Source: Dermatophilaceae bacterium (GTDB lineage: Bacteria; Actinomycetota; Actinomycetes; Actinomycetales; Dermatophilaceae). Taken from it: a DNA stretch of 64,000 nucleotides. The stretch covers positions 60,176-124,175 of the forward strand of contig JBAOHJ010000001.1 of the NCBI GenBank assembly GCA_037045055.1, given 5' to 3'. The position numbers and the translations under genes are program-made. This document shows, piece by piece, positions 845 through 61,487 of this stretch. Positions within the stretch are counted from its first letter, which is position 1. Each line of letters opens with the position of its first letter. A model generated the notes under the pieces. The model saw nothing but the letters and a program-made list of their open reading frames with translations. It ran no database searches and was not told the DNA's origin.

Positions 845-1602
845 CGTCGCGCCGCGGCCAGCGTCTGCGCGGCATACCCACCGCCGAACAGCAGCGCGTG
901 CACGGCCAGGGCATGCAGCTGGTGCAGGCCGACCCGCTCGCGCCATCCCGCGGCCAACGGGGCCACCGCCCGGTATGCCGCGAGGACGGCCGGCAGGTGC
1001 GGGGCGCCGAACAGGTCGAGCATGGCCAGGTCGTACTCGCGGTGCCCACCATGCGCCGACGGGTCGATGAGGGTGGCGCCACCCGGGGTCCACAGGACGT
1101 TGCCCGACCACAGGTCGCCGTGCACACGCGCCGGCGGGTCGCCGGTGTCGAAGTGCCCCTCGGTGCAGCGTCGCGCGACCGCGTCGAGCACGACGGTGTC
1201 GGCCGCGCAGAAGACCCCGGCGTCGCGGCATACCCGCGTGATGGGGGTCAGACGGTCCAGGGCCCAGAACTGCCCCCAGCCGGCCCGGGGGGTGAGCGCC
1301 AGGGGCAGCGGCGCGGACAGCGGGCCGAAGAACCCGTCGCCGCTCCAGTCCCCGGGCGGGCTGCCGTATGCCGCGGCTCCGGCCAGGTGGGTGCGGGCCA
1401 GGCCCTCCCCGAATCGCTGGGCGGCCAGGCGTGTCGGCGACGCCGTGTCGAGGCGGGCCAGGTCCAGGTAGTCGCGGCCCACGCCGAGCACCCGCACCAC
1501 CGGCACCCCCCCGGGCGCCTGCGCGAGCCAGCGCAGGCCGGCGGCCTCCCAGGCGAAGTACCCGGCCGGCGCCCGGGTCGAGGCCTTGCGGTGCACCAGC
1601 AT
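835..1602 (-). CDS. Fructosamine/aminoglycoside-kinase family protein
   Basis: This is the last 255 aa of ORF 835..2556, starting at MLVHRKAS (ATG 1600-1602). Kinase motifs HGDLWSGNVLW and IDPSAHGGHREYDLAM are present. The upstream part of the ORF is R/P/S-rich noise overlapping the dehydrogenase gene. Confidence 0.75.
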   Translation of the reverse strand: MLVHRKASTRAPAGYFAWEAAGLRWLAQAPGGVPVVRVLGVGRDYLDLARLDTASPTRLAAQRFGEGLARTHLAGAAAYGSPPGDWSGDGFFGPLSAPLPLALTPRAGWGQFWALDRLTPITRVCRDAGVFCAADTVVLDAVARRCTEGHFDTGDPPARVHGDLWSGNVLWTPGGATLIDPSAHGGHREYDLAMLDLFGAPHLPAVLAAYRAVAPLAAGWRERVGLHQLHALAVHALLFGGGYAAQTLAAARRYR

Positions 1603-1744
1603 ACCGGCAGGGTAGGCGCACGCCGCGCGCAGACTCCCGCACAGGCCACCGCGCCGGCCACCCCAGGGCCGCGGACGGCTCGCGGCGCCGACCGCCCGGT
1701 GGCTGGTCGGCGCCGCGAGGCGGGCCCGTCGGGCGGCGGGATCG

Positions 1745-2791
1745 CTACGGCTCGACGGTGACCTTGATGGCCTCTCCCTTGGCGACGATGTCGAAGGCGT
1801 CGACGACGTCGGCGAGCGGGATGTGCCGGGTGATGAGGTCCTTGACGGGCACCTGGCCGGTGGCGATGTAGTGCAGGGCGCGGCGGTTGTGCTCGGGGGC
1901 CGACCCGTTGGCCCCGTGGATGTGCAACTGCCGGTAGTGCACGAGGTTGGAGTCGCAGGTGATCGTCGGGTCGGTCTTGGGCAGCCCCCCGAAGAACGAG
2001 ATCCGCCCGTTGCGGGCGGCCATGGCGATGGCCTGCTCCTGGGTGACGTTGGCCGCGGTGGCGGTGATGACGACGTCGGCCCCGCGCCCGTCGGTGAGCT
2101 GCATGACCCGGGCCACGACGTCGACCTGGGAGCCGTCGATGACCTCGTCGGGGTGGACCGCCTCGGCGGACATCGCCAGCCGGTCGGCGTTGACGTCCAC
2201 GAGGAAGACCCGCCCCGCCCGGTGGACGCCCCGGGCGATCCGGATGTGCATGCACCCGATCGGCCCGGCGCCGAACACGACGACGGTGTCCCCGGGCTCG
2301 ATGCCCAGCAGCTCCTGGGCGTTGATCGCGCAGGCGAACGGCTCGGCCGCCGACGCCTCGTCGAAGCCGACGTTGTCGGGGATGCGGTTGAGGCCGTCGA
2401 CCTTGAGGACCTCGCGGGGCACGACGAGGTACTCCGCGAAGCCGCCGTCGTACTGGTAGCCCATCGAGGTCTGGTTCTGGCAGACCGCCATCCAGCCCTT
2501 GCGGCACTCGTAGCAGTCGCCGCAGGGCACCGCGGCGATGACCTGGACCCGGTCACCGGGCTGCCAACCGCCGGTGACCTCGGCGCCGACCTGCACGACC
2601 TGCCCGGCGATCTCGTGGCCGATGGTCCGCGGCGGTGTGAGGTTCTGGTGGCCGTTGTGGAGGATCTTGACGTCGGTGCCGCAGGTGGAGCAGTTGCGGA
2701 CCCGGATCTTCACCTCGTCCGGTCCGCACACCGGCTCGGGCACCTCTTCGAGGCGGACGTCTCCGGGGGCGTAGAAGCGCAGCGCCTTCAT
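1745..2791 (-). CDS. Zinc-dependent polyol/alcohol dehydrogenase (MDR superfamily, sorbitol/L-iditol dehydrogenase-like)
   Basis: GHEIAG zinc-ligand motif, structural-zinc Cys cluster CGDCYECRKG and Rossmann motif GAGPIGC. The start was moved to MKALRFY (ATG 2789-2791), which is preceded by AGGAGA. Confidence 0.85.
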   Translation of the reverse strand: MKALRFYAPGDVRLEEVPEPVCGPDEVKIRVRNCSTCGTDVKILHNGHQNLTPPRTIGHEIAGQVVQVGAEVTGGWQPGDRVQVIAAVPCGDCYECRKGWMAVCQNQTSMGYQYDGGFAEYLVVPREVLKVDGLNRIPDNVGFDEASAAEPFACAINAQELLGIEPGDTVVVFGAGPIGCMHIRIARGVHRAGRVFLVDVNADRLAMSAEAVHPDEVIDGSQVDVVARVMQLTDGRGADVVITATAANVTQEQAIAMAARNGRISFFGGLPKTDPTITCDSNLVHYRQLHIHGANGSAPEHNRRALHYIATGQVPVKDLITRHIPLADVVDAFDIVAKGEAIKVTVEP

Positions 2792-2965: not shown

Positions 2966-4975
2966 ATGGCGAGTACGGCAACGACCGCGCAGCGCACCTC
3001 GGCACGGGTGCACGTGCAGAAGTTCGGGACGTTCCTGTCCAACATGGTGATGCCCAACATCGGCGCCTTCATCGCCTGGGGGCTCATCACCGCACTGTTC
3101 ATCAAGTCCGGCTGGCTCAACCAGGGCGGCAACGGCGGCCTGGCCGACACCGGCTGGGTCGCCCAGATCGGCGGCTGGGGGGCCTACGACGGCAAGGGCA
3201 TCGTCGGCCCGATGATCACCTACCTGTTGCCCCTGCTCATCGGCTACACCGGCGGCAAGATCGTCTACGACGTCCGCGGTGGCGTCGTGGGCGCGATCGC
3301 CACCATGGGGGTCATCGCCGGCACGAGCATCCCCATGTTCATGGGCGCGATGGTCATGGGTCCGCTAGGCGGCTGGTCGATGAAGAAGCTCGACGGCCTC
3401 TGGGACGGCAAGATCAGGCCCGGGTTCGAGATGCTCGTCAACAACTTCTCCGCCGGGATCTGGGGCATGATCCTCGCGGTCTTCGGCTTCTTCGCCATGG
3501 GCCCGGTCGTGATCACCCCCTTCGCCACCGCCGCCGGCAACGTCGTCCAGTGGCTGGTCGACCGGGGCCTGCTGCCGCTGACCTCGGTGTTCATCGAGCC
3601 GGCCAAGGTGCTGTTCCTCAACAACGCGATCAACCACGGCGTGCTCACCCCCCTGGGGACCAACCAGTCCCTCGCCGAGGGCAAGTCGGTGCTGTTCCTG
3701 CTCGAGGCGAACCCGGCGGCCGGCCTGGGCGTCCTGCTGGCCTACATGCTGTTCGGCAAGGGCATGGCCAAGGCCTCGGCGCCCGGCGCCGCGCTCATCC
3801 ACTTCGTCGGCGGCATCCACGAGATCTACTTCCCCTACATCCTGGCCAAGCCGAAGCTCATCGCGGCCGCGATCGCCGGCGGCATGACCCAGGTGTTCGT
3901 CAACGTCCTGTTCCACTCCGGTCTGCGGGCACCGGCCGCCCCCGGCTCGATCCTCGCCGTGTACGCCCAGACGCCGGGCGACAGCATCGTCGGGGTCACC
4001 CTGTCCTGGATCCTCGGGGCGGCGGCCTCGTTCCTCGTCGCCGCATTCCTGCTCAAGACCGACCGCTCCGACGACGAGGGCGATCTCGCCAAGGCGACCG
4101 CCGACATGGAGGCGATGAAGGGCAAGACGTCGCTCGCGTCCGCCGCCCTGGTCGGCGACGCGGTCGCCGACGGCGCCCCCCACGGCCCGATCCGCTCCAT
4201 CGTGTTCGCCTGCGACGCAGGCATGGGCTCGTCGGCGATGGGCGCCAGCGTGCTGCGCCGCAAGATCCAGGCGGCCGGCTTCGCCGACGTCACGGTGGTC
4301 AACAAGGCCATCGCCAACCTCACCGACACCGTCGACCTCGTCGTCAGTCACCAGGACCTCACCGAGCGGGCGCGCCAGCGCACCGGGTCGGCGAGGCACG
4401 TCTCGGTGGACAACTTCATGGGCAGCCCGCGCTACGACGAGATCGTCGAGCTGCTCGGCCGGACCAACGAAGGCGCCGCCGCGTCCTCGGCCTCCCCGGC
4501 CCAGGCCCCGCCGGCGCCGGAGCCCCAGCCGGCCGAGCGCGGCGGGGACGTCCTCGCGCCCGGCTCGGTGGTCCTGGCCGGCACCGCGCGCACCCGCGAC
4601 GACGCGATCACCGAGGCGGGCACCCTGCTCGTCGCGGCCGGCGCGGTGGACGCGGCATACGTCGCCTCGATGCACGAGCGCGAGGCGTCGGTGTCGACCC
4701 ACATGGGCAACCTGTTGGCGATCCCGCACGGCACCAACGAGGCCAAGGGCTCGATCGCGCGGACCGCGATGTCGTTCGTGCGCTACCCGCAGCACGTCGA
4801 CTGGAACGGCAAGCCGACCGAGTTCGTCGTCGGCATCGCCGGTGCCGGCGAGGACCATCTCACCCTGCTGTCCAAGCTGGCCAGGGTCTTCCTCGACCAG
4901 GCCCAGGTCGAGCGGCTGCGCTCGGCCCGGACCCCCGAGGAGGTCCTCGACGTGCTCGACAGCGTCACCGCCTGA
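2966..4975 (+). CDS. mtlA: PTS mannitol-specific EIICBA component
   Basis: EIIC N-terminus VHVQKFGTFLSNMVMPNIGAFIAWG, EIIB cysteine site IVFACDAGMGSSAMG and a C-terminal EIIA region with LAIPHGT. The start was moved to MASTATTAQ (ATG 2966), after GAAAGGA. Confidence 0.85.
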   Translation: MASTATTAQRTSARVHVQKFGTFLSNMVMPNIGAFIAWGLITALFIKSGWLNQGGNGGLADTGWVAQIGGWGAYDGKGIVGPMITYLLPLLIGYTGGKIVYDVRGGVVGAIATMGVIAGTSIPMFMGAMVMGPLGGWSMKKLDGLWDGKIRPGFEMLVNNFSAGIWGMILAVFGFFAMGPVVITPFATAAGNVVQWLVDRGLLPLTSVFIEPAKVLFLNNAINHGVLTPLGTNQSLAEGKSVLFLLEANPAAGLGVLLAYMLFGKGMAKASAPGAALIHFVGGIHEIYFPYILAKPKLIAAAIAGGMTQVFVNVLFHSGLRAPAAPGSILAVYAQTPGDSIVGVTLSWILGAAASFLVAAFLLKTDRSDDEGDLAKATADMEAMKGKTSLASAALVGDAVADGAPHGPIRSIVFACDAGMGSSAMGASVLRRKIQAAGFADVTVVNKAIANLTDTVDLVVSHQDLTERARQRTGSARHVSVDNFMGSPRYDEIVELLGRTNEGAAASSASPAQAPPAPEPQPAERGGDVLAPGSVVLAGTARTRDDAITEAGTLLVAAGAVDAAYVASMHEREASVSTHMGNLLAIPHGTNEAKGSIARTAMSFVRYPQHVDWNGKPTEFVVGIAGAGEDHLTLLSKLARVFLDQAQVERLRSARTPEEVLDVLDSVTA

Positions 4976-5048: not shown

Positions 5049-5443
5049 GACGAGTCGGTCAGGCGGTCGCGTCGCCCGGTGCGAGCCGGGCGCCGAGGAA
5101 CGTCCGGGCTCCGTAGGGCGAGGTGGTGGCCAACAGCCACCCGGAGCGATCCGCGGGACAGTGCCACAGAGAACAGACCGCCGCGTATGCCGGTCCGCCG
5201 GCCTTCGCGGTAAGGGTGAAACGGTGGTGTAAGAGACCACCAGCGGCCTGGGTGACCAGGTCGGCTCGGTAAACCCCACCCGGAGCAAGCTCGCACAGCA
5301 GACGCCCGAGGGCGGCCCGCCCGAGTCTGCGGGTAGAGCGCTAGAGCCGGTCAGCAATGGCCGGCCGAGATGGATGACCGCCACCGGGCGGCCGGCACCG
5401 GCCGCCCGGGACAGAACCCGGCGTATCGACCGACTCGTCCACC
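5049..5443 (+). ncRNA. rnpB: RNase P RNA, bacterial type A
   Basis: Conserved blocks GAGGAACGTCCGGGCTCC, ACAGAGAACAGACCGCC, GGTAAGGGTGAAACGGTGGTGTAAGAGACCACCAGC, GGTAAACCCCACCCGGAGCAAG and ACAGAACCCGGCGTATCG. P1 pairing is CGAGTCGGTC (5051-5060) with GACCGACTCG (5428-5437). A -10-like CATAAT lies at 5036-5041. Confidence 0.88.
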
Positions 5444-5560: not shown

Positions 5561-6804
5561 GTGACCGGTGCGCCCGATGCCGCCGACCGGCTGTGGACGG
5601 CTCCGTTCCTCGCCCTCACCCTGGCCAACCTCTGCGTGAGCGTCACCTCCTACGTCCTGGTCGCGACGCTCGCCGGGTATGCCGCCGGGGCCTACGGCGC
5701 GAACCCCGCGCAGGCCGGGCTGGTGAGCTCGGTCTTCTTCGTCGGGGCGATGCTCGCCCGCCTCGTCGCCGGCCGGGTGCTGACCTCCCGGGGGATCCGG
5801 CCGGTCGTGCTCGGATCCCTGGCGGCGCTGCTGGCCACCTGCCTGGCCTACCTGTTGCCCCACGCCATGCCCACGATGCTGCTCGTGCGGGTCCTGCACG
5901 GGATCGCCTACGGGTTCGCGGCGACCGCCCTGGCCAGCGCCGCGATGCGTGCAGTCCCGCCGGCCCGGCGCGGCGAGGGCTCGGGGTGGTTCACCGCCGG
6001 GATGGCGCTGGCCACCGGCATCGCGCCCTTCGTCGGGATGACCCTCGCCCGCGGCGGTGGCGGCCAGGGGGCGGTGTTCGCCGTGACCATCGGGTGTTGC
6101 GTCGTCGCGCTCGCGGCGGCGGCGCTCGTCGCCGGGTCGCTGCCCGCCCGCCCGCCGGCTGGCGCGCCCGCGGGGACGGCGGCGCGGCGGAGCTGGGTGG
6201 GCGGCCTGGTCGACCGTCGGGCGCTGCCGGTCGGCGCGGTCGTGGGGCTGTGCGCCGTCCCCTTCGCCGCGATCCTCGCCTTCTTGTCCTCGTATGCCGC
6301 GCAGGTCGGGCTGCCCGAGGCCGCGAGTGCGTACTTCCTCGTGTACGCCGGCGTCATCCTGGTCAGCCGACCGGCCGCGGGCATCGTCCAGGACCGCCGA
6401 GGCGACGAGGTGGTCGTCGTGCCGATCGTCCTCGCGCTGGCCCTGGGCAGCCTGCTCACCGGGCTGGCCGCCACCGGCCCCGTGCTCCTGCTGGCCGCCG
6501 GGCTGCTGGGCTTGGGCTACGGCACCCTGACCTCGGTCGGGCAGGCGATCGCGGTGGCCCGGGTGGCCCGCGAGCGGGTCGGTCTGGGGGTCTCGAGCTA
6601 CTTCCTGCTCGTCGAGGTCGGCACCGGGCTGGGCCCGGTCGTGCTCGGGCTGCTGGTCGAGCCGGTCGGGTATCCCGGCACCTACGCCGCCGGGGCGGCC
6701 TTCGCCCTCGCCGCGCTGGTGCTCTACCTCGCGGTGGTGCGCGGCCCGCGGACTATCCGTGGCGGCACCGCCGCGGGGGAGGGCCCGGCGGTGCCGCGCC
6801 GGCG

Positions 6805-6808: not shown

Positions 6809-8481
<1,673 letters not shown>

Positions 8482-8943: not shown

Positions 8944-8947
8944 TGTC

Positions 8948-11256: not shown

Positions 11257-11330
11257 ACCGGGGAGTGTAGGTCGAGGCTCTGAGCGCGGATACCGTGAAG
11301 ACGGCACATCGGGCGGACCAGGAGGCCAGC

Positions 11331-30259: not shown

Positions 30260-30312
30260 ACCGCATCGCGGGTATGCCGCGCGGCACGAGCGCCCGGCCG
30301 AGCGCACCGCGG

Positions 30313-53801: not shown

Positions 53802-53845
53802 GGTATGCCGTCCCGGCACCGTTGCGTGCCTCGCGGCGGCATACC
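53802..53845. repeat. 9-bp perfect inverted repeat built from two octamer copies (GGTATGCCG, 26-nt spacer, CGGCATACC)
   Basis: Read directly in the 73-bp divergent spacer between the DUF3043 and M20 peptidase genes. Confidence 0.9.
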
Positions 53846-53865: not shown

Positions 53866-55245
53866 GTGACCGACACCTTCCCCGCTGCGCAGGTCGAGGC
53901 GATCCGCGCCCGCGTGCTCGAGCTGCTGCCGGCCCTGCGCGCCGACCTGGAGCGGCTCGTGCGGATCCCGAGCGTCTCGCTGCAGTCGCTGGACGGCTAC
54001 GACCAGAGGCACGTCGAGGCCAGCGCCGCGGCGGTGGCCGCGCTGCTGCGCGCCGAGGGCCTGACCGTCGAGACCGTCCGCGAGGGTGGGCAGCCCGCCG
54101 TCATCGGGCATCGTCCGGGCCCCCCTGGGGCGCCGACCGTGCTGCTCTACGCCCACCACGACGTCCAACCGCCCGGCGACCCGGCGACCTGGACGAGCCC
54201 GGCGTGGGAGCCGACCGAGCGCGCCGGGCGGCTGTACGGGCGGGGTGCGGCCGACGACAAGGCCGGGATCACCGCCCACCTGGCCGCGCTGCGGGCGCAC
54301 GGCGATGCCCTGCCGGTGGGGGTGACGGTGTTCGTCGAGGGTGAGGAGGAGGTCGGGTCGGAGTCGCTGCCGGCCATCCTGGCCCGGCATGGCCAGCGGC
54401 TGCGCGCCGACGCGATCGTGTTGGCCGACAGCGGCAACTGGGAGGTTGGGCAGCCGGCGCTGACCACGACCCTGCGCGGGTTGGTCCGGGCGGTGGTCAC
54501 CGTGCGCACCCTCGATCACGCCCTGCACTCGGGCATGTTCGGCGGGCCGGTGCCCGACGCGCTCACCGTGCTGGTGCGGCTGCTGGCCAGCCTGCACGAC
54601 GAGCGCGGCGACGTCGCGGTGGCGGGGCTGCAGGCCGGCGTGGCCAGCGAGCTGCCCTTCGACGAGGCCCGGCTGCGCGCCGAGTCCGGGCTGCTGGACC
54701 AGGTGCAGCTCACCGGGTCGGGCTCGCTGCTGTCGCGACTGTGGACCCGTCCCGCGCTCAGCGTCATCGGCATCGATGCCCCGACGGTGGCCAACGCGTC
54801 CAACGCGCTGCTGCCGGTCGCCTCGGCCAAGGTGTCGATGCGCCTGGCGCCGAGCGAGGACCCGGCCACCGCGTATGCCGCGCTCGCCGAGCATCTGCGC
54901 GGCCACGTCGAGTGGGGCGCGCAGGTCGAGGTGTCGCTGGCCGACGACGGTGCCGGCTTCGCCGCCGACACCACCGGGCCGATCTACGACCAGGCGCGCG
55001 CGGCACTGGCCGACGCCTGGGGGGTGGCGCCGGTGCACATGGGGGTGGGCGGGTCGATCCCGTTCGTGGCGGCCTTCGCGCGGCGTTTCCCCGAGGCGGC
55101 CATCCTCGTCACCGGGGTGGAGGACCCGGACAGCCGGGCCCACGGCGCCGACGAGTCGCTGGATCTGGGGGAGTGGGAGCGGGCGTGCGTCGCCGAGGCC
55201 GTGCTGCTGGCCCGGTTGGGCCGGTTGGGCCGGTTGGGCCGGTAA
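53866..55245 (+). CDS. M20-family dipeptidase
   Basis: LLYAHHDVQPPG, RGAADDKAG and VEGEEEVGS metal/catalytic motifs. GTG start at 53866. Confidence 0.85.
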   Translation: MTDTFPAAQVEAIRARVLELLPALRADLERLVRIPSVSLQSLDGYDQRHVEASAAAVAALLRAEGLTVETVREGGQPAVIGHRPGPPGAPTVLLYAHHDVQPPGDPATWTSPAWEPTERAGRLYGRGAADDKAGITAHLAALRAHGDALPVGVTVFVEGEEEVGSESLPAILARHGQRLRADAIVLADSGNWEVGQPALTTTLRGLVRAVVTVRTLDHALHSGMFGGPVPDALTVLVRLLASLHDERGDVAVAGLQAGVASELPFDEARLRAESGLLDQVQLTGSGSLLSRLWTRPALSVIGIDAPTVANASNALLPVASAKVSMRLAPSEDPATAYAALAEHLRGHVEWGAQVEVSLADDGAGFAADTTGPIYDQARAALADAWGVAPVHMGVGGSIPFVAAFARRFPEAAILVTGVEDPDSRAHGADESLDLGEWERACVAEAVLLARLGRLGRLGR

Positions 55246-56572: not shown

Positions 56573-57736
56573 ATGCGCGTGCTCGTCGCCCCGGACTGCT
56601 TCACCGGCACCCTCAGTGCGCCGCAGGCGGCGCAGGCCATCGCCGCCGGGTGGGCCCGCGCCGCCCCGCACGACGAGCTGGTCCAGGTGCCCCTGTCCGA
56701 CGGCGGGCCGGGCTTCGTCGACGTGCTCGCCGCCAGCCTCGGCGGGGAGCACGTCGACGTCACGGTGGCCGACCCGCTGGGCCGGCCGACCCCCGCGACC
56801 TTCCTGCTCGGCCCAGGGCGGGCGGGGCCCACGGCATACCTGGAGTCGGCGGCCGCCTGCGGGCTGCACCTGCTGGCCGCGGTCGAGCGCGACCCGGGCC
56901 GCACGAGCAGCTACGGCGTCGGCCAGCTGCTCGCCGCGGCCCTCGACCGCGGCGCGGACCGAGTGGTCGTCGGCCTGGGCGGCAGCGGCACCAACGACGC
57001 CGGCGCCGGGCTGTTGGCCGCCCTCGGCGTCGGCTCGCCGGCGCGCCTGGCCCACGGCGGTATGCCGCTGACCGACGCCACCGATGCCGACCTCGACGGT
57101 CTCGAGGAGGTCATGGACCGCTGGCGCGGGGTCGACCTGCTGGCCGCCACCGACGTCGACAGCCCGCTGCTCGGCCCGCACGGCGCCAGCGCCGTCTTCG
57201 GCCCGCAGAAGGGCGCCACCCGCGAGCAGGTCGAGCGACTCGACGCGGCCCTGGCCAGGTTCGCCGATGTCGTCGAGGTCCGGCATCGGTCGCCGCGCGA
57301 CCTGCTCACCGGGCGGCCGCTGACCCGCGAGCGCCTGCCCGGGGCCGGTGCGGCCGGCGGCCTCGGTTACGCGCTGCTGCTGCTCGGTGGGCGACGGGTC
57401 AGCGGGGTGAGCGCCGTGCTCGAGGCGGTGGGCTTCGAGCAGTCGCTCACCCGGGCGGACCTGGTCGTCACGGGCGAGGGCAGTTTCGACGGGCAGAGCC
57501 TGCGCGGGAAGGTCGTCTGCGGGGTGGCCGCCGCGGCCGCCGCGCATGCGGTCCCCGTCGTCGTGGTGGCCGGGCAGGTGTCCCTCGGACGCCGGGAGGT
57601 CATGGCGGCGGGCATCCACGGCGCGTATGCCGTGGCGCAGCGGCCGGGGGACCTGCCCGCAGCGCTCGCCGACCCGGTCGGCACGCTGGCGGCCCGGGCC
57701 GAGCAGGTGGCCCGGACCTGGTCGCCGGTCCGGTGA
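56573..57736 (+). CDS. Glycerate kinase
   Basis: MRVLVAPDCFTGTLSA, LSDGGPGF, GLGGSGTNDAGAGLL and VTGEGSFDGQSLRGK. Confidence 0.85.
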   Translation: MRVLVAPDCFTGTLSAPQAAQAIAAGWARAAPHDELVQVPLSDGGPGFVDVLAASLGGEHVDVTVADPLGRPTPATFLLGPGRAGPTAYLESAAACGLHLLAAVERDPGRTSSYGVGQLLAAALDRGADRVVVGLGGSGTNDAGAGLLAALGVGSPARLAHGGMPLTDATDADLDGLEEVMDRWRGVDLLAATDVDSPLLGPHGASAVFGPQKGATREQVERLDAALARFADVVEVRHRSPRDLLTGRPLTRERLPGAGAAGGLGYALLLLGGRRVSGVSAVLEAVGFEQSLTRADLVVTGEGSFDGQSLRGKVVCGVAAAAAAHAVPVVVVAGQVSLGRREVMAAGIHGAYAVAQRPGDLPAALADPVGTLAARAEQVARTWSPVR

Positions 57737-58346: not shown

Positions 58347-59333
58347 ATGCGCGTTGCGGTGACCGGTTCGATCGCCACCGACCACCTCATGACTTTCGGT
58401 GGGCGCTTCGCCGACTCGCTCATCGTCGAGCAGTTGGACAAGGTCTCGCTGTCCTTCCTGGCCGACGAGCTGCAGATCCGCCGGGGTGGGGTGGCGGCCA
58501 ACATCAGCTTCGGCATGGCCAACCTCGGGCAGCAGCCCGTCCTCGTCGGAGCGGTCGGCGAGGACTTCGCCGACTATCGCTCCTGGTTGGAGCGGCACGG
58601 CGTCGACTGCGCCTCGGTCCTGGTGAGCGACACCGCGCACACCGCCCGGTTCGTGTGCACCACCGACGAGGACATGGCCCAGATCGCGACCTTCTACGCC
58701 GGGGCCATGGCCCAGGCCCGCGAGATCGAGCTGGCGCCCATCGCCGAGCGGGTGGGCGGGCTGGACCTCGTGCTCGTCGGGCCCAACGACCCGGTGGCCA
58801 TGGCGCGGCATACCGAGGAGTGCCGCACCCGTGGCATCCCGTTCGCCTCCGACCCGTCGCAGCAGCTGGCCTGGCTGGACGGGCCCGGGATCGTCGCGTT
58901 GATCGAGGGGGCGACCTACCTGTTCACCAACGAGTACGAGTCGCACATCATCAAGGAGAAGACCGGCTGGGGCGACGCCGACATCGCCGCGGCGGTGTCG
59001 GTGCAGGTGACCACCAAGGGCAAGGACGGCGCGACCGTCTACGCCCGGGGCGCCGAGCCGGTGCACGTCCCGGTCGCCCAACGGGTGCGCCGCGCCGACC
59101 CCACCGGCGTCGGAGACGCCTTCCGGGCGGGGTTCCTCACCGGGCTGGCCGGCGGCCTGGAGCATCGACTGTGCGCCGAGATCGGGTCGCTGCTGGCCAG
59201 CTACGTCCTGGAGACGGTCGGGACGCAGGAGTACGTCCTGCACACCCGTGGATTCCTGGCCCGGCTGGCCGCCGCTTACGGCGAGTCCAGTGCCGCCGCG
59301 GTCGCCGACCACGTCCGCTGCCCGAGGCCGTGA
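58347..59333 (+). CDS. PfkB-family carbohydrate/adenosine kinase (Rv2202c AdoK-like)
   Basis: GGVAANISFG and DPTGVGDAFRAGF PfkB signatures. It lies near ctaC, as in mycobacteria. Confidence 0.8.
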   Translation: MRVAVTGSIATDHLMTFGGRFADSLIVEQLDKVSLSFLADELQIRRGGVAANISFGMANLGQQPVLVGAVGEDFADYRSWLERHGVDCASVLVSDTAHTARFVCTTDEDMAQIATFYAGAMAQAREIELAPIAERVGGLDLVLVGPNDPVAMARHTEECRTRGIPFASDPSQQLAWLDGPGIVALIEGATYLFTNEYESHIIKEKTGWGDADIAAAVSVQVTTKGKDGATVYARGAEPVHVPVAQRVRRADPTGVGDAFRAGFLTGLAGGLEHRLCAEIGSLLASYVLETVGTQEYVLHTRGFLARLAAAYGESSAAAVADHVRCPRP

Positions 59334-60026: not shown

Positions 60027-60261
60027 GCCGTACGGTGTAGCAGGCGTGGTCGGGCTCCTCGGTCACGGACACGAGGTGCGCGGCGCGCATCCGGCAGAAC
60101 GCCGGGACGTCCGTGCGGGCCGCCGGGTCGGTGGCCAGCAGCCGGACCTCGGTGCCCACCGGGTGACGCCCCAGGGCCTCGGCGAGTCGGATCACCGGCA
60201 CCGGGCAGCGCAGGCCACGGGCGTCGACCTGTACCTGAGGGTGAGCCTCGGGGTCGGTCAT
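59956..60261 (-). CDS. TusA/SirA-family sulfur-carrier-like protein
   Basis: CPxP motif in DARGLRCPVPVIRL. The ATG at 60259-60261 overlaps the upstream gene stop (ATGA). The unconserved tail overlaps the aat 3' end. Confidence 0.62.
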   Translation of the reverse strand: MTDPEAHPQVQVDARGLRCPVPVIRLAEALGRHPVGTEVRLLATDPAARTDVPAFCRMRAAHLVSVTEEPDHACYTVRLRSTGPAAGPGGPDAAERGSPGG

Positions 60262-61487
60262 CGCGGACGCAGCCGGCCTCGGACGGCGGCCACGGCCTCG
60301 GGCAGGACGGCGCAGAATCGGGCCACCTCGTCGGTCCGCTGGGGGGTGATCGAGCGCAGCGGCAGCGTCAGTCGGACGTTGCCGTGCGTGAGCACCCCCA
60401 TCGCGCGCAGCACGTGGCTGGGCTCGAGCGTGCTCGCCGTGCAGGCCGAGCCGGACGCCACGGCGAAACCGCGCCGGTCCAGCTCCGCCACGATGGCCTC
60501 CCCGTCGACGAACAGGCACGAGAACGTCGACACGTGCGGCAGCCGGTCCTCGGGGTCGCCGACCACCTCGGTGTCCGGGATACCCGCTGCGGCCGCGCGG
60601 ATGGTGCCGATCAGCGCGTGCGCGTCGGCCGCCTCGGCGGCCCGCTCGGTCGCGGTCTGCCGCCAGGCCTCGGCGGCGGCGAGCACGAGGGGGACCACGG
60701 GATCGTCGTCGGTGCGCCCGCCCTCGGCCGGTGACCACCCCCCGGGCCGCCGCCACCGGGTGCGGGCGGGCACGACGAGGACGCCGACCCCCGGCGGGCC
60801 CCCCCACGACCGCGCGTCGCCGGTCAGCACGTCGTAGTCGGTGGGGACCGGGTCGCGTCCGAGCGTGGACGTCGCGTCGACGAGCAGGGGTATGCCGCGC
60901 CCCTGGGTCGCCTCGCGTGCCTGCGCCAAGGGCTGGCGGGTGCCCACCTCGCCGTTGGCGGCCTGCAGCGCGGCGGCGGCCACCCCAGGTCGATCCAGGG
61001 CGGCAGCCCAGGCCGACAGGTCGAGCCGGCCGAGTCGGTCGACCGCCACCGGGGGGAGGTCCGCAGAGGCGGGGTCCACCGTGGCCAGGTCCTGCGGCGA
61101 CCGGCCGGCATACCAGCAATAGCCGGCATCCCGGGCGGTCACCAGGACCGCGGAATGCTCCACGGCGCTGACGACCACGTGCGGCCCCCGCCGGCGCGCG
61201 GCATACCGCAGCCCGGTCAGACCCAGCCTGAGCGCTTGGGCGCCGCTACCGGTGAAGCTCACCTCCTCGGGGCGCACGCCCAGCCCCTCGGCGAGGGTGG
61301 CGCGGGCCTGGTCGAGCATCCGTCGGGCGGCCGCGGCCTCCGCGTAGCCGCGCCCGGGGTCGGCCCAGCCGCGCTCCAGCGCCGCGACCAGCAGCTCGCG
61401 CGCGGCCGGGTGCAGGGGACCGCTGGCCGCGTCGAGCAGCACCCGGCGGGCCGGGTCGCCGGTGGGCTCGGAGGTCGCGGACACCAC
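60258..61487 (-). CDS. Class-V aminotransferase-fold, cysteine-desulfurase-like protein that appears to lack the PLP lysine
   Basis: SAVEHSAV, LLVDATS and the active-site loop ASGSACTASTLEPSHVLRAMG are present. The segment aligning to the IscS/NifS S-x-H-K motif reads GDARSWGGPPGVG, with Ser where Lys is expected. Confidence 0.78.
   Translation of the reverse strand: MVSATSEPTGDPARRVLLDAASGPLHPAARELLVAALERGWADPGRGYAEAAAARRMLDQARATLAEGLGVRPEEVSFTGSGAQALRLGLTGLRYAARRRGPHVVVSAVEHSAVLVTARDAGYCWYAGRSPQDLATVDPASADLPPVAVDRLGRLDLSAWAAALDRPGVAAAALQAANGEVGTRQPLAQAREATQGRGIPLLVDATSTLGRDPVPTDYDVLTGDARSWGGPPGVGVLVVPARTRWRRPGGWSPAEGGRTDDDPVVPLVLAAAEAWRQTATERAAEAADAHALIGTIRAAAAGIPDTEVVGDPEDRLPHVSTFSCLFVDGEAIVAELDRRGFAVASGSACTASTLEPSHVLRAMGVLTHGNVRLTLPLRSITPQRTDEVARFCAVLPEAVAAVRGRLRPR

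What the first reader, a model, noticed from the sequence alone, without database searches (positions are those of the whole stretch)
870..61206. Hyper-abundant asymmetric octamer CGGCATAC / GTATGCCG in genes, an RNA gene and spacers
Counting by eye, the exact 8-mer occurs 71 times, about one per 900 bp.
- 34 copies read CGGCATAC on the + strand, starting at 870, 1226, 4653, 8885, 9809, 11251, 12751, 13217, 14804, 17949, 21069, 22708, 24595, 29147, 30783, 31185, 34881, 35693, 37519, 38076, 39342, 41284, 42567, 45498, 47700, 48168, 48562, 49870, 53294, 53837, 56832, 58806, 61106, 61199.
- 37 copies read GTATGCCG, starting at 973, 1366, 5185, 5677, 6292, 8622, 10576, 11975, 13163, 14458, 19323, 22093, 23499, 25858, 30272, 31081, 31736, 33627, 34807, 36603, 37689, 39923, 40643, 41366, 41864, 42799, 42975, 47711, 47832, 48699, 51076, 53803, 54874, 56521, 57060, 57625, 60890.
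A composition-only expectation for a ~72% GC sequence is about 2 copies on both strands. That figure is my rough estimate, not a computed statistic.
The motif is not a codon-usage by-product.
- It occurs in all three frames and in both orientations relative to the host gene.
- It brings in codons that look rare here: GGC-ATA-CCG (Ile ATA) at 39342 and 48168; GTA-TGC (Val-Cys) at 1226; TAT-GCC (Tyr-Ala) and GCA-TAC (Ala-Tyr) many times; CGG-CAT-ACC (Arg-His-Thr) at 14804, 21069, 47700 and 58806.
- I noticed the codon-preferred synonym GTACGCCG only at 6343 and 63876.
- It also lies in non-coding DNA (29147, 30272, 53803/53837, 56521) and inside rnpB (5185).
Flanks are not conserved beyond a frequent G on the 5' side, so these are not copies of a mobile repeat. 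Orientation is balanced, with no strand skew.
Long motif-free stretches cover the probably most highly expressed or conserved genes: 1374-4652 (dehydrogenase and mtlA), 6300-8621 (pgi), 14812-17948 (lgt and glnA2), 25866-29146 (glnA region), 42983-45497 (sucB) and 61207-64000 (ctaCD).
The density, the orientation independence and the tolerance inside coding DNA resemble DNA uptake sequences (Neisseria DUS, Pasteurellaceae USS). They could also fit a genome-wide target of a DNA-binding, modification or repair system. I know of no such element described for high-GC actinobacteria.
Basis: partly seen in the sequence, partly recalled or inferred. Interest (0 to 1): 0.85.

Follow-up and report, generated by a model that had tools for sequence, protein, structure and literature searches.

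The report
Strand-alternating hyper-abundant octamer CGGCATAC
An 8-base word, CGGCATAC, occurs about once per 900 bases in this high-GC actinobacterial chromosome and in most of its family, is actively maintained against codon preference, and alternates between the two DNA strands, which points to an undescribed genome-wide "self" signal read one strand at a time.

Summary
CGGCATAC/GTATGCCG occurs 71 times (34+/37-), against 1.4 to 5 expected under dinucleotide, Markov-3 and synonymous-codon nulls. Seven listed coordinates are off by 1-10 nt. It is not an artefact, an adaptor or a mobile repeat. The same octamer runs at 2-17 copies per 10 kb in independently sequenced Dermatophilaceae (Knoellia, Phycicoccus, Pedococcus, Tetrasphaera/Nostocoides, many MAGs) and about 0 in Janibacter sensu stricto and outgroups. 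It fills 50-86% of codon-compatible peptide contexts in five of six frame classes (0-2% in motif-poor relatives), and it has enriched YA, AY and RHT peptides 2-3.4-fold. Sites are retained between Knoellia species far better than control 8-mers. New finding: successive copies alternate strand (window z=+4.0, replicated in two locus sets). Same-strand copies exclude each other within about 1.2 kb, while opposite-strand copies do not. Best working explanation (about 0.4): a DUS/USS-like signal for DNA uptake, transfer or recombination, read strand-specifically. The main rival is a Chi-like signal. The mechanism is untested.

The parts
870..877 (+). CGGCATAC copy
   Evidence: exact match; in CDS 835-1602(-), codons GGG-TAT-GCC-GCG = GYAA
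973..980 (-). CGGCATAC copy
   Evidence: exact match; in CDS 835-1602(-), codons GCG-GCA-TAC = AAY
1226..1233 (+). CGGCATAC copy
   Evidence: exact match; in CDS 835-1602(-), codons GTA-TGC-CGC = VCR
1366..1373 (-). CGGCATAC copy
   Evidence: exact match; in CDS 835-1602(-), codons GCG-GCA-TAC = AAY
4653..4660 (+). CGGCATAC copy
   Evidence: exact match; in CDS 3008-4975(+), codons GCG-GCA-TAC = AAY
5185..5192 (-). CGGCATAC copy inside rnpB
   Evidence: exact match; lies in the inserted tip of the P12 hairpin of RNase P RNA (5051-5441)
5677..5684 (-). CGGCATAC copy
   Evidence: exact match; in CDS 5561-6808(+), codons GGG-TAT-GCC-GCC = GYAA
6292..6299 (-). CGGCATAC copy
   Evidence: exact match; in CDS 5561-6808(+), codons TCG-TAT-GCC-GCG = SYAA
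8622..8629 (-). CGGCATAC copy
   Evidence: exact match; in CDS 8575-8943(+), codons GTG-TAT-GCC-GGG = VYAG
8885..8892 (+). CGGCATAC copy
   Evidence: exact match; in CDS 8575-8943(+), codons GCG-GCA-TAC = AAY
9809..9816 (+). CGGCATAC copy
   Evidence: exact match; in CDS 9612-10304(-), codons TCG-TAT-GCC-GAG = SYAE
10576..10583 (-). CGGCATAC copy
   Evidence: exact match; in CDS 10393-11256(-), codons CCG-GCA-TAC = PAY
11251..11258 (+). CGGCATAC copy
   Evidence: exact match; straddles the called start of CDS 10393-11256(-), counted as non-coding
11975..11982 (-). CGGCATAC copy
   Evidence: exact match; in CDS 11610-13271(+), codons GAG-TAT-GCC-GCG = EYAA
12751..12758 (+). CGGCATAC copy
   Evidence: exact match; in CDS 11610-13271(+), codons GCG-GCA-TAC = AAY
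13163..13170 (-). CGGCATAC copy
   Evidence: exact match; in CDS 11610-13271(+), codons CGG-TAT-GCC-GCC = RYAA
13217..13224 (+). CGGCATAC copy
   Evidence: exact match; in CDS 11610-13271(+), codons AGC-GGC-ATA-CCC = SGIP
14458..14465 (-). CGGCATAC copy
   Evidence: exact match; in CDS 13343-15127(+), codons CTG-TAT-GCC-GCC = LYAA
14804..14811 (+). CGGCATAC copy
   Evidence: exact match; in CDS 13343-15127(+), codons CGG-CAT-ACC = RHT
17949..17956 (+). CGGCATAC copy
   Evidence: exact match; in CDS 17498-20524(+), codons GCG-GCA-TAC = AAY
19324..19331 (-). CGGCATAC copy
   Evidence: exact match; in CDS 17498-20524(+), codons CGG-TAT-GCC-GCG = RYAA
21069..21076 (+). CGGCATAC copy
   Evidence: exact match; in CDS 20586-21458(+), codons CGG-CAT-ACC = RHT
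22093..22100 (-). CGGCATAC copy
   Evidence: exact match; in CDS 21488-22153(+), codons GTG-TAT-GCC-GCC = VYAA
22708..22715 (+). CGGCATAC copy
   Evidence: exact match; intergenic
23499..23506 (-). CGGCATAC copy
   Evidence: exact match; in CDS 22726-24381(+), codons TGG-TAT-GCC-GTG = WYAV
24595..24602 (+). CGGCATAC copy
   Evidence: exact match; in CDS 24404-25327(-), codons CCG-TAT-GCC-GTG = PYAV
25858..25865 (-). CGGCATAC copy
   Evidence: exact match; in CDS 25493-26200(+), codons GGG-TAT-GCC-GCC = GYAA
29137..29144 (+). CGGCATAC copy
   Evidence: exact match; intergenic
30272..30279 (-). CGGCATAC copy
   Evidence: exact match; intergenic
30783..30790 (+). CGGCATAC copy
   Evidence: exact match; in CDS 30313-32931(-), codons CGG-TAT-GCC-GCC = RYAA
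31081..31088 (-). CGGCATAC copy
   Evidence: exact match; in CDS 30313-32931(-), codons GCG-GCA-TAC = AAY
31185..31192 (+). CGGCATAC copy
   Evidence: exact match; in CDS 30313-32931(-), codons CTG-TAT-GCC-GTG = LYAV
31736..31743 (-). CGGCATAC copy
   Evidence: exact match; in CDS 30313-32931(-), codons CGG-CAT-ACC = RHT
33627..33634 (-). CGGCATAC copy
   Evidence: exact match; in CDS 33040-34311(+), codons CCG-TAT-GCC-GGT = PYAG
34807..34814 (-). CGGCATAC copy
   Evidence: exact match; in CDS 34339-35073(-), codons GCG-GCA-TAC = AAY
34881..34888 (+). CGGCATAC copy
   Evidence: exact match; in CDS 34339-35073(-), codons GTG-TAT-GCC-GCG = VYAA
35693..35700 (+). CGGCATAC copy
   Evidence: exact match; in CDS 35079-36104(-), codons CTG-TAT-GCC-GCG = LYAA
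36603..36610 (-). CGGCATAC copy
   Evidence: exact match; in CDS 36186-36950(-), codons GCG-GCA-TAC = AAY
37519..37526 (+). CGGCATAC copy
   Evidence: exact match; in CDS 37025-38287(-), codons CTG-TAT-GCC-GCC = LYAA
37689..37696 (-). CGGCATAC copy
   Evidence: exact match; in CDS 37025-38287(-), codons CGG-CAT-ACC = RHT
38077..38084 (+). CGGCATAC copy
   Evidence: exact match; in CDS 37025-38287(-), codons CTG-TAT-GCC-GGC = LYAG
39342..39349 (+). CGGCATAC copy
   Evidence: exact match; in CDS 38818-40041(+), codons GGC-GGC-ATA-CCG = GGIP
39923..39930 (-). CGGCATAC copy
   Evidence: exact match; in CDS 38818-40041(+), codons GGT-ATG-CCG = GMP
40643..40650 (-). CGGCATAC copy
   Evidence: exact match; in CDS 40605-42080(+), codons GGG-TAT-GCC-GTG = GYAV
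41284..41291 (+). CGGCATAC copy
   Evidence: exact match; in CDS 40605-42080(+), codons GCG-GCA-TAC = AAY
41366..41373 (-). CGGCATAC copy
   Evidence: exact match; in CDS 40605-42080(+), codons CTG-TAT-GCC-GCG = LYAA
41864..41871 (-). CGGCATAC copy
   Evidence: exact match; in CDS 40605-42080(+), codons CGG-TAT-GCC-GCG = RYAA
42567..42574 (+). CGGCATAC copy
   Evidence: exact match; in CDS 42144-43034(-), codons GGT-ATG-CCG = GMP
42798..42805 (-). CGGCATAC copy
   Evidence: exact match; in CDS 42144-43034(-), codons CCG-GCA-TAC = PAY
42975..42982 (-). CGGCATAC copy
   Evidence: exact match; in CDS 42144-43034(-), codons GCG-GCA-TAC = AAY
45498..45505 (+). CGGCATAC copy
   Evidence: exact match; in CDS 45025-46422(-), codons GTG-TAT-GCC-GTG = VYAV; same site is the motif in 13/31 motif-rich and 0/31 motif-poor relatives
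47700..47707 (+). CGGCATAC copy (left arm of 19-nt palindrome)
   Evidence: exact match; in gcvT 47280-48380(+), codons CGG-CAT-ACC = RHT
47711..47718 (-). CGGCATAC copy (right arm of 19-nt palindrome)
   Evidence: exact match; in gcvT 47280-48380(+), codons GAG-TAT-GCC-GTG = EYAV
47832..47839 (-). CGGCATAC copy
   Evidence: exact match; in gcvT 47280-48380(+), codons GTA-TGC-CGC = VCR; the VCR peptide is conserved in 69/76 relatives
48158..48165 (+). CGGCATAC copy
   Evidence: exact match; in gcvT 47280-48380(+), codons CGC-GGC-ATA-CCG = RGIP; motif in 8/34 rich and 0/42 poor relatives
48563..48570 (+). CGGCATAC copy
   Evidence: exact match; in CDS 48387-49196(-), codons CGG-TAT-GCC-GTG = RYAV
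48699..48706 (-). CGGCATAC copy
   Evidence: exact match; in CDS 48387-49196(-), codons GCG-GCA-TAC = AAY
49870..49877 (+). CGGCATAC copy
   Evidence: exact match; in CDS 49193-50806(-), codons CTG-TAT-GCC-GGC = LYAG
51076..51083 (-). CGGCATAC copy
   Evidence: exact match; in CDS 50803-51918(-), codons ACG-GCA-TAC = TAY
53294..53301 (+). CGGCATAC copy
   Evidence: exact match; outside called CDS
53803..53810 (-). CGGCATAC copy
   Evidence: exact match; in 5' end of called CDS 53713-55245(+) (start uncertain), codons GTA-TGC-CGT = VCR
53837..53844 (+). CGGCATAC copy
   Evidence: exact match; in 5' end of called CDS 53713-55245(+) (start uncertain), codons GCG-GCA-TAC = AAY
54873..54880 (-). 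CGGCATAC copy
   Evidence: exact match; in CDS 53713-55245(+), codons GCG-TAT-GCC-GCG = AYAA
56521..56528 (-). CGGCATAC copy
   Evidence: exact match; in 5' end of called CDS 56504-57736(+) (start uncertain), codons GGG-TAT-GCC-GTC = GYAV
56832..56839 (+). CGGCATAC copy
   Evidence: exact match; in CDS 56504-57736(+), codons ACG-GCA-TAC = TAY; motif in 9/14 rich and 0/13 poor relatives
57060..57067 (-). CGGCATAC copy
   Evidence: exact match; in CDS 56504-57736(+), codons GGT-ATG-CCG = GMP
57625..57632 (-). CGGCATAC copy
   Evidence: exact match; in CDS 56504-57736(+), codons GCG-TAT-GCC-GTG = AYAV
58806..58813 (+). CGGCATAC copy
   Evidence: exact match; in CDS 58359-59333(+), codons CGG-CAT-ACC = RHT; motif in 5/6 rich and 0/9 poor relatives
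60890..60897 (-). CGGCATAC copy
   Evidence: exact match; in CDS 60258-61487(-), codons CGC-GGC-ATA-CCC = RGIP
61106..61113 (+). CGGCATAC copy
   Evidence: exact match; in CDS 60258-61487(-), codons TGG-TAT-GCC-GGC = WYAG
61199..61206 (+). CGGCATAC copy
   Evidence: exact match; in CDS 60258-61487(-), codons CGG-TAT-GCC-GCG = RYAA

Best explanation
CGGCATAC is a lineage-specific, genome-wide 'self' signal of a large part of the Dermatophilaceae (Intrasporangiaceae). It works like the DNA uptake sequences of Neisseriaceae (DUS) and Pasteurellaceae (USS). Some component of a DNA uptake, transfer or recombination pathway prefers DNA that carries the octamer, so alleles carrying it are transmitted or retained more often. 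This molecular drive, possibly helped by selection, has pushed the word to about 1 per 0.9 kb against codon preference and, in part, against protein sequence. The strand-alternating layout adds a feature not known to me for DUS or USS. The signal appears to be read on one strand, or from one direction, at a time, for example on the single strand that enters the cell or that is loaded for recombination. As a result, one copy per strand per roughly 1-2 kb is enough and a second same-strand copy nearby is redundant. Shown: the abundance, the sharp 8-bp specificity, the lineage distribution with repeated absences, the maintenance of sites, the reshaping of codons and peptides, and the same-strand exclusion.
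For: 1) Excess: 71 copies against 1.4-5 expected under all nulls.
2) Occupancy: the motif fills 73% of x-Y-A-[VADEG], 86% of RHT, 53% of [SPTA]-A-Y, 60% of VCR and 50% of x-M-P contexts, against 0-2% in motif-poor relatives. The rare codon TAT is used in 34 of 41 TAY-GCC-G contexts, against 18 of 318 elsewhere.
3) Proteome effect: YA[VADEG], [SPTA]AY and RHT peptides are 2-3.4 times more frequent per coding kb than in motif-poor relatives. This resembles what is reported for USS (Findlay & Redfield, PMC2817400, abstract seen).
4) Distribution: the same octamer runs at 2-17 copies per 10 kb in Knoellia, Phycicoccus, Pedococcus, Tetrasphaera/Nostocoides, Lapillicoccus, Arsenicicoccus and many MAGs, from Illumina, Nanopore and complete-genome assemblies. 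It is about 0 in Janibacter sensu stricto, Kribbella, Nocardioides and Kineosporia. On a GcvT tree the rich genomes fill the Dermatophilaceae clade, with several motif-poor sub-lineages. That is the pattern expected if a dispensable machine is lost and the costly word then decays.
5) Dialects: the base at -1 is G in the window and A in other sub-lineages.
6) Maintenance: between Knoellia genomes of 78-90% nucleotide identity, 11-14 of 12-14 sites are retained, against 30-56% of control 8-mers. 7 of 12 are conserved in all six genomes, against 12% of controls. There are also parallel gains from CGGCCTAC.
7) Many routes lead to the word. The synonymous neighbours CGGCgTAC, CcGCATAC and CGGCATcC are depleted to 0.11, 0.10 and 0.67 of their frequency in motif-poor relatives. 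The force therefore acts on the whole 8-mer, not on one base.
8) No replichore skew: 34:37 with GC skew positive across nearly the whole window. Density is equal in coding and non-coding DNA.
9) Strand-wise redundancy. There are 53 runs against 36.4+-4.2 expected, the top of 393 control 8-mers. The effect is replicated at z=6.5 and z=3.1 in two other locus sets. Same-strand pairs are depleted below about 1.2 kb in all three data sets. Occupancy of permissive contexts is 0.38 against 0.70, and 0.44 against 0.66, with and without a same-strand copy within 1.2 kb. Opposite-strand copies give no reduction in occupancy (a mild positive association in the gcvT loci and the window), and 36 of 37 loci go the same way. 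The effect is symmetric upstream and downstream and independent of gene borders.
10) Literature context: significant even spacing of USS was noted by Karlin et al. 1996, as cited in PMC1939737. HIP1 is now proposed as an uptake signal. Natural transformation through Flp/Tad pili exists in Micrococcus luteus, of the same order (PMC6370729).
Against: No uptake, binding or recombination assay is possible here. Natural competence has not been reported for these genera, to my knowledge. In Haemophilus, uptake is reported to be independent of USS orientation (PMC1939737), so a simple dsDNA-receptor model predicts orientation-blind spacing. Here the overall spacing is Poisson-like (CV 0.92) and only same-strand copies interfere. 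Unlike DUS, the motif is not enriched in intergenic terminator pairs in the window (6 of 71 copies in 9.4% non-coding DNA). One-mismatch variants show no general excess (422 in 541 kb against 769 in 739 kb in motif-poor relatives), whereas singly mismatched USS are over-represented in Haemophilus (own knowledge).
Confidence: 0.4

Rival explanations
1. Chi-like signal. The octamer is recognised on one strand by a translocating helicase-nuclease (AdnAB-, RecBCD- or AddAB-type) that enters at a double-strand end. Recognition switches the enzyme from degradation to RecA loading. Each direction of travel needs its own correctly oriented copy, so copies spread evenly on each strand.
For: Same-strand exclusion over about 1.2 kb, with no reduction from opposite-strand copies, is what a direction-specific tracking enzyme predicts. 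The benefit of a site scales with the distance to its same-orientation neighbours, so the effect should be symmetric on both sides, as observed. The length (8 nt), the lineage specificity and the 'self-marker' logic match Chi (own knowledge; PMC8022716 listed). No Chi is known for actinobacterial AdnAB (own knowledge).
Against: Known Chi sites are co-oriented with replication. Here the ratio is 34:37 on what looks like one replichore. Known Chi sequences are only a few-fold over-represented and are built from common codons (own knowledge). This word is 15- to 50-fold enriched, uses rare codons (TAT, GCA, ATA) and has changed peptide content. That requires a much stronger per-site force than break-repair economy is thought to give.
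Confidence: 0.2
2. Per-strand housekeeping signal kept by ordinary selection. One example is an asymmetric site that is nicked or hemi-methylated on one strand and so marks the nascent strand for a repair or restart system. This would be a functional analogue of GATC/MutH in a phylum that lacks MutS/MutL. Both daughter duplexes then need a copy on the relevant strand within about 1-2 kb of any lesion.
For: It explains equal numbers on both strands regardless of replichore, the even spacing per strand with a kb-scale reach, and equal density in coding and non-coding DNA.
Against: It is hard to see how a system could start from an 8-mer that occurs about once per 60 kb by chance (12 copies in 739 kb of motif-poor relatives). 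Several sub-lineages, including Janibacter, do without the motif entirely. No such system is known. No matching methylation motif appears in the Nanomotif supplement, which is only a weak negative.
Confidence: 0.12
3. Non-functional by-product of a local mutational or repair bias. One version is deamination of a methylated C in GTACGCCG, giving GTATGCCG. Another is a very-short-patch-like repair that corrects near-cognate mismatches towards the octamer.
For: The transition neighbour CGGCgTAC (GTAcGCCG on the other strand) is common in motif-poor relatives (242 in 739 kb) and nine-fold depleted in motif-rich DNA.
Against: Motif density (0.8-1.7 per kb) is 2.5-5 times the frequency of that feeder (0.33 per kb). 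Other routes are used as well: C>G at position 2, C>A at positions 5 and 7, and two-step synonymous changes at RHT. Peptide content has changed. A local chemical or patch-repair bias cannot sense another copy 1 kb away on the same strand.
Confidence: 0.06
4. Binding site of a duplex-DNA-binding nucleoid or chromosome-organising protein.
For: High copy number, sharp specificity and lineage-wide conservation.
Against: A duplex binder sees both orientations as the same site. It should therefore give orientation-blind spacing effects, but overall spacing is Poisson-like and only same-strand copies interfere. Nucleoid proteins rarely need an exact 8-mer (own knowledge).
Confidence: 0.06
5. Artefact: Illumina P7 adaptor remnants (CAAGCAGAAGACGGCATACGAGAT contains the octamer) or systematic consensus errors at a modified base.
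For: The octamer is part of the P7 adaptor, which is why literature searches by sequence were swamped (adaptor sequence from own knowledge).
Against: Flanks do not match the adaptor: A at -1 in 13 of 71 copies and G at +1 in 16 of 71. The encoded peptides (VYAV, RGIP, RHT, VCR, TAY) are conserved in relatives. The motif recurs at orthologous sites in dozens of independent assemblies made with different technologies and is absent from sister lineages.
Confidence: 0.01

Closest known systems
USS of Pasteurellaceae (core AAGTGCGGT) and DUS of Neisseriaceae (GCCGTCTGAA and dialects)
   Same: About one copy per kb. Tens-fold or greater excess over expectation. Equal numbers in both orientations with no replichore skew. 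Many copies lie inside genes in the reading frames that tolerate them. Measurable reshaping of peptide content. Conservation across a family, with lineage 'dialects'. Absence in some related lineages. Even spacing is reported for USS.
   Different: A different phylum (monoderm, high-GC Actinomycetota) and an unrelated sequence. The specificity is strict at 8 bp with almost no flank signal. There is no intergenic or terminator enrichment in the window. One-mismatch forms show no excess. Copies alternate strand and exclude only same-strand neighbours, which I have not seen reported for DUS or USS. Uptake bias and a receptor are untested.
HIP1 (GCGATCGC) of cyanobacteria
   Same: A hyper-abundant octamer, conserved over a large clade, present inside genes, evolutionarily maintained and non-randomly spaced. 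Its function was long unknown and it is now proposed to promote transformation.
   Different: HIP1 is a palindrome and a known methyltransferase target, so strand or orientation is not defined for it. CGGCATAC is asymmetric and its strand matters. No methylation is known for it.
Chi sites (for example GCTGGTGG in E. coli, AGCGG in B. subtilis)
   Same: A short asymmetric word, lineage-specific, read on one strand by a travelling enzyme. This would naturally make the two orientations independent and same-orientation copies redundant.
   Different: Chi is co-oriented with replication, only moderately enriched and made of frequent codons. This word shows no skew, a 15- to 50-fold excess and rare codons.
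KOPS/SRS/AIMS (FtsK/SpoIIIE-orienting octamers) and TraB recognition sequences of Streptomyces plasmids
   Same: 8-bp asymmetric words recognised by a DNA translocase (own knowledge).
   Different: KOPS and AIMS are defined by strong replichore skew, which is absent here. TraB recognition sequences are clustered in plasmid clt loci, not spread at 1 per kb through housekeeping genes.

Membership tests
DNA uptake sequences (DUS/USS) | Genome-wide hyper-abundance (about 1 per kb, far above compositional expectation) | tested here: met
   71 copies in 64 kb against 1.4-5 expected. 2-17 copies per 10 kb in relatives.
DNA uptake sequences (DUS/USS) | Both orientations equally frequent, no replication-related skew | tested here: met
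   34:37 with GC skew positive across nearly the whole window.
DNA uptake sequences (DUS/USS) | Copies inside genes sit in permissive frames and bias peptide composition | tested here: met
   49 of 65 genic copies encode Tyr-Ala or Ala-Tyr. Occupancy is 50-86% in five of six context classes. YA, AY and RHT contexts are 2-3.4 times enriched.
DNA uptake sequences (DUS/USS) | Conserved across a family, with dialects | tested here: met
   The same 8-mer is found across the Dermatophilaceae clade. The preferred base at -1 is G or A depending on lineage.
DNA uptake sequences (DUS/USS) | Competent cells preferentially take up DNA that carries the sequence | not testable with these tools
   Needs uptake or transformation competition assays.
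DNA uptake sequences (DUS/USS) | Competence machinery with a sequence-specific receptor encoded in the genome | not tested
DNA uptake sequences (DUS/USS) | Frequent inverted pairs acting as terminators, with intergenic enrichment (DUS especially) | tested here: inconclusive
   Density is 1.0 per kb in non-coding and 1.12 per kb in coding DNA in the window. Close pairs (<150 bp) are mostly inverted and favour the convergent form 35:15, but the loci are not independent.
Chi sites | Orientation bias co-directional with replication | tested here: not met
   34:37 on one apparent replichore.
Chi sites | Orientation-specific action, so the two orientations behave independently | tested here: met
   Same-strand exclusion occurs with no exclusion by opposite-strand copies. 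This is consistent with Chi but not specific to it.
Chi sites | Modulates a helicase-nuclease at double-strand ends | not testable with these tools
   Needs biochemistry or genetics.
KOPS/AIMS (FtsK-orienting polar sequences) | Strong strand skew that switches at ori and dif | tested here: not met
   No skew in any 4-kb bin of the window. Orientations alternate instead.
HIP1-type iterated palindromes | Palindromic octamer containing a methyltransferase site | tested here: not met
   CGGCATAC is not its own reverse complement. Methylation status is unknown.
Mobile or interspersed repeats (REP, MITE, IS ends) | Copies are part of a longer conserved unit and are mostly intergenic | tested here: not met
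   Information content falls to background one base outside the 8-mer. 65 of 71 copies lie inside conserved housekeeping genes at positions where relatives keep the same peptide.
Sequencing or adaptor artefact | Flanks match the P7 adaptor, or sites are not reproducible in independent assemblies | tested here: not met
   Flanks differ from the adaptor. Orthologous sites recur in many independent assemblies.

The most novel reading that the evidence does not exclude
A large clade of Dermatophilaceae, including the wastewater phosphate accumulators Tetrasphaera/Nostocoides and relatives, carries a previously undescribed genome-wide self-recognition word. It is read strand-specifically by a DNA uptake, transfer or recombination machine. 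This would be the first uptake-sequence- or Chi-class signal in Actinomycetota, and the first shown to be laid out as alternating, mutually exclusive per-strand copies with a reach of about 1.2 kb. It would imply sequence-biased gene exchange, and probably natural competence or an unknown strand-specific recombination control, in a group where none is known.
Probability: 0.55. Interest if true: 0.9.

Novelty: new variant of a known kind. Interest (0 to 1): 0.82.

Why it matters
Hyper-abundant short words such as DUS, USS, Chi, KOPS and HIP1 have each revealed a major DNA-handling machine. None is known for Actinomycetota, where Chi for AdnAB is still missing and natural transformation is barely explored.

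This case gives an exact 8-mer. It gives a set of culturable carriers (Knoellia, Phycicoccus, Pedococcus, Tetrasphaera) and closely related non-carriers (Janibacter) for comparative genomics. It also gives a quantitative signature, per-strand exclusion over about 1.2 kb, that any proposed mechanism must explain. That makes the question directly testable.

The motif shows how strongly such a signal can override codon usage and even protein sequence. It is a ready marker for binning or host assignment of Dermatophilaceae DNA in metagenomes. Practically, it is identical to part of the Illumina P7 adaptor, which could affect aggressive adaptor trimming of these genomes.

Tried and rejected
- Exact-protein look-up of the window's GlnA to identify the source genome: not on record. 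The organism is placed only as Dermatophilaceae-like, with best GcvT identity 76-79%.
- Literature search by sequence: swamped by Illumina adaptor strings. The whole-word search found nothing relevant. There was nothing in a survey of abundant oligonucleotides or in the Nanomotif supplements.
- Viral-contig scan for close inverted motif pairs: returned chance hits in mid-GC phages, so it says nothing about phages of these hosts.
- tblastn against plasmids to find Dermatophilaceae plasmids: none surfaced.
- Single-base conversion or sequencing-error idea: rejected. Several feeders and two-step routes are used, density exceeds the main feeder, and the peptides are conserved.
Replaced by an occupancy test, which does show under-use in the most codon-adapted genes.
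- Alternation as a per-gene or protein effect: rejected. It is equally strong across gene borders.
- 'Directional import starting at the motif' model: rejected. It predicts interference only from upstream same-strand and downstream opposite-strand copies, but the observed interference is symmetric and same-strand only.
- Search for large motif-free islands in very motif-rich loci, as possible foreign DNA: only one gap >=4 kb was found, so this is uninformative.
- My gene caller, trained on the 74% GC window, under-calls genes in relatives of 67-70% GC. I therefore do not rely on coding versus non-coding densities outside the window.

Full report
**Observation**

The exact octamer occurs 71 times in the 64-kb window, 34 times as CGGCATAC on the + strand and 37 times on the - strand.

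The window is 74.1% GC. Expected counts are:
- 1.36 under dinucleotide-preserving shuffles, with a maximum of 4;
- 1.2, 1.9 and 3.7 under Markov orders 1-3;
- 5.2+-2.0 inside genes when synonymous codons are shuffled within each gene, against 65 observed. This null is conservative, because it keeps the window's own inflated TAT and GCA counts.

Motif-poor relatives of the same GC content carry 12 copies in 739 kb. The word has sharp edges: 71 of 74 CGGCATA and 71 of 72 GGCATAC belong to the full 8-mer. Outside it there is only a preference for G at -1, C at +1 and avoidance of T.

**Relation to genes**

I built a gene map from codon log-odds. It gives 55 genes and 90.6% coding. Pfam shows an ordinary core-chromosome region: pgi, PTS, rnpB, lgt, two glutamine synthetases, glnE, lipA, sucB/lpdA, gcvT, nadA and ctaCD. 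There is no DNA-processing, competence or methyltransferase gene.

Of the 65 genic copies:
- 32 read xxG-TAT-GCC-Gxx (Tyr-Ala);
- 17 read xCG-GCA-TAC (Ala-Tyr);
- 6 read RHT, 4 GIP, 3 VCR and 3 GMP.

The word is therefore placed where the protein allows it, but by using rare codons. TAT is chosen in 34 of 41 TAY-GCC-G contexts, against 18 of 318 Tyr codons elsewhere.

Counting every peptide that could encode the word synonymously, the window uses it in 73% of x-Y-A-[VADEG], 86% of RHT, 53% of [SPTA]-A-Y, 60% of VCR, 50% of x-M-P and 19% of G-I contexts. Motif-poor relatives use it in 0-2%. The permissive peptides YA[VADEG], [SPTA]AY and RHT are themselves 2-3.4 times more frequent per coding kb than in motif-poor relatives, so protein sequence has been bent as well. 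Density in non-coding DNA (1.0 per kb) equals that in coding DNA (1.12 per kb). The rnpB copy sits in the inserted tip of the variable P12 hairpin.

**It is real and lineage-wide**

GcvT-centred loci from 80 species genomes and GlnE-centred loci from 80 metagenome contigs were fetched.

The same octamer is the top or near-top A/T-containing 8-mer in MAGs related to the window (9-17 copies per 10 kb). It runs at 2-10 per 10 kb in Knoellia, 'Janibacter' sp. HTCC2649, Phycicoccus, Pedococcus, Tetrasphaera/Nostocoides, Lapillicoccus and Arsenicicoccus. It is essentially absent from Janibacter sensu stricto, Austwickia, Kribbella, Nocardioides, Kineosporia and others. These assemblies come from Illumina, Nanopore and finished genomes.

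At orthologous, conserved peptides, motif-rich genomes often carry the word and motif-poor genomes with the same peptide never do:

| Peptide | Motif-rich | Motif-poor |
|---|---|---|
| VYAV | 13/31 | 0/31 |
| RGIP | 8/34 | 0/42 |
| RHT | 5/6 | 0/9 |
| TAY | 9/14 | 0/13 |

This excludes consensus errors and adaptor contamination. The octamer is part of the Illumina P7 adaptor, but the flanks do not match it. On a GcvT neighbour-joining tree all outgroups are empty, and the Dermatophilaceae clade is mostly rich with several poor sub-lineages. This is a single-gene tree and only indicative. It suggests an old origin with repeated loss followed by complete decay.

**Maintenance and origin of sites**

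Six Knoellia-group loci share 78-90% nucleotide identity. Of the 12-14 motif sites of one genome, 11-14 are retained in the others, against 30-56% identity for control 8-mers. Seven of 12 sites are conserved in all six genomes, against 12% of control windows. Parallel gains from CGGCCTAC are visible.

Compared with motif-poor relatives, the synonymous neighbours are depleted: CGGCgTAC to 0.11, CcGCATAC to 0.10 and CGGCATcC to 0.67. Most other one-off variants are at background and the total is not elevated. Several mutational routes, including two-step ones, therefore feed the word. Motif density (0.8-1.7 per kb) exceeds the frequency of the commonest feeder (0.33 per kb). A single hotspot, such as deamination of GTACGCCG, cannot account for it. 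The force acts on the whole 8-mer.

**Layout along the chromosome**

Ignoring strand, spacing is Poisson-like. The CV is 0.92. The largest gap is 3287 bp against a simulated mean maximum of 4298 bp. There are five gaps >=2.3 kb against 5.2 expected.

The eight most codon-adapted genes (glnA, glnA2, pgi, ctaC, ctaD, PTS, ADH, pfkB) nevertheless use only 2 of 13 permissive contexts, against 63 of 102 elsewhere (p=0.002). This fits a word that is costly in highly expressed genes. GC skew is positive across almost the whole window, yet orientation is 34:37. That rules out KOPS-like behaviour and classical Chi-like skew.

**New finding: strand alternation**

Successive copies alternate strand. There are 53 runs among 71 sites against 36.4+-4.2 expected (z=+4.0). 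This is the highest value among 393 frequent asymmetric 8-mers, whose z has mean -0.2 and SD 1.1. The effect is replicated in the GcvT loci (z=6.5; 68% of neighbours opposite) and the GlnE loci (z=3.1; 63%).

In the window:
- same-strand gaps are regular, with CV 0.67 and 0.77 against about 0.97 for random placement;
- only 3 same-strand gaps are shorter than 350 bp, against 12.2 expected (P=0.0004).

Pair-correlation shows same-strand pairs depleted below about 1.2 kb in all three data sets and at parity beyond that.

Availability of sites can be controlled for. A permissive peptide context is occupied in 38% of cases with a same-strand copy within 1.2 kb and 70% without (GcvT loci, p=3e-11). 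In the GlnE loci the figures are 44% and 66% (p=8e-4). Opposite-strand copies do not reduce occupancy: there is no effect in the GlnE loci and a mild positive association in the GcvT loci and the window. Thirty-six of 37 loci go the same way.

The effect is symmetric upstream and downstream and is as strong across gene borders as within genes. The related loci are partly homologous, so their P-values are inflated. The window alone, and the two different genomic regions, agree.

**Inference**

Four properties need explaining together:
- a strict 8-mer driven to near-saturation of its permissive sites against codon and protein preferences;
- maintenance at orthologous positions;
- conservation across a family, with complete loss in some sub-lineages;
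- copies that are redundant only with same-strand neighbours within about 1.2 kb.

The first three are the hallmarks of DNA uptake sequences. There, biased uptake plus recombination drives the word through the genome (PMC1939737, PMC2817400, PMC7811141). HIP1 is now being interpreted in the same way. Natural transformation exists in the same order, in Micrococcus luteus (PMC6370729).

This fits recognition on single-stranded DNA entering the cell or being loaded for recombination. It also fits a tracking helicase-nuclease. It does not fit:
- a simple duplex receptor;
- a nucleoid protein;
- a local repair bias;
- a model in which import proceeds in one direction from the motif, which predicts asymmetric interference.

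I therefore commit, at about 0.4, to a DUS/USS-like self-signal for uptake, transfer or recombination that is read strand-specifically. The rivals are a Chi-like element (0.2), a per-strand repair or strand-marking signal (0.12), a mutational or patch-repair by-product (0.06), a duplex-binding organiser (0.06) and an artefact (0.01). The mechanism is inferred. No uptake, binding, modification or enzyme data exist, and no genome-wide gene content could be examined.

**Novelty**

No description of this octamer was found. The whole-word and sequence searches, a survey of abundant bacterial oligonucleotides and a methylation-motif supplement were all negative. The searchable library is open-access only, so this is not proof of absence.

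As a phenomenon it belongs with DUS, USS, HIP1 and Chi. It is not a demonstrated member of any of them. It differs in phylum and in sequence, and above all in the strand-alternating, same-strand-exclusive layout.

Noticed in passing
whole window; Illumina P7 adaptor: CGGCATAC is an internal 8-mer of the Illumina P7 adaptor (CAAGCAGAAGACGGCATACGAGAT, from own knowledge). The flanks in the window do not match, so this is coincidence. It swamps literature searches by sequence and could cause over-trimming of reads from these genomes by permissive adaptor trimmers.
   Followed up: partly
window 53797-53812 and 56515-56530: Two copies share a longer identical 16-mer, GACAGGGTATGCCGTC. Both lie at or just upstream of the 5' ends of + strand genes (M20 peptidase and glycerate kinase). 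This may be a regulatory site overlapping the octamer, or chance.
   Followed up: no
window 47700-47718: Two copies form a perfect 19-nt palindrome, CGGCATACCGAGTATGCCG (8-bp stem, 3-nt loop), inside gcvT, encoding R-H-T-E-Y-A-V. Relatives mostly have LH[DE]-x-Y-[AG]-V here, so the left arm required amino-acid changes.
   Followed up: partly
window 5051-5441 (+): This is RNase P RNA, class A (271.6 bits). Its P12 hairpin carries an insertion whose tip contains the octamer, so even a structural RNA gene has acquired a copy in its most variable element.
   Followed up: yes
window 52836-52933 (-): A cobalamin riboswitch (38.6 bits) lies upstream of a - strand operon of ECF/cobalt-type transporter genes (CbiQ, ABC ATPase, ECF S component) at 48387-52727.
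   Followed up: no
L201 and L203 (metagenome contigs WBZS01000324.1, Ga0116180_1002220): These contigs carry 15-17 copies per 10 kb, denser than the window. Motif density varies about 8-fold among carrier lineages (1.7 to 17 per 10 kb), which suggests different strengths of the underlying force.
   Followed up: partly
related loci and window, pairs closer than 150 bp: Close inverted pairs favour the convergent form CGGCATAC...GTATGCCG over the divergent form, 35:15 when pooled (binomial p=0.007, but the loci are not independent).
   Followed up: partly
motif-rich loci, variant CGGCATAG: The one-off variant CGGCATAg is about 5-fold more frequent in motif-rich than in motif-poor DNA (27 against 7), unlike most other one-off variants. 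Position 8 may be the least strictly read, or this may be the commonest decay product.
   Followed up: no
window 30313-32931 (-): A large TPR + CHAT-domain protein (872 aa) sits next to an ECF-type sigma factor gene (29181-29774) in an otherwise metabolic region.
   Followed up: no
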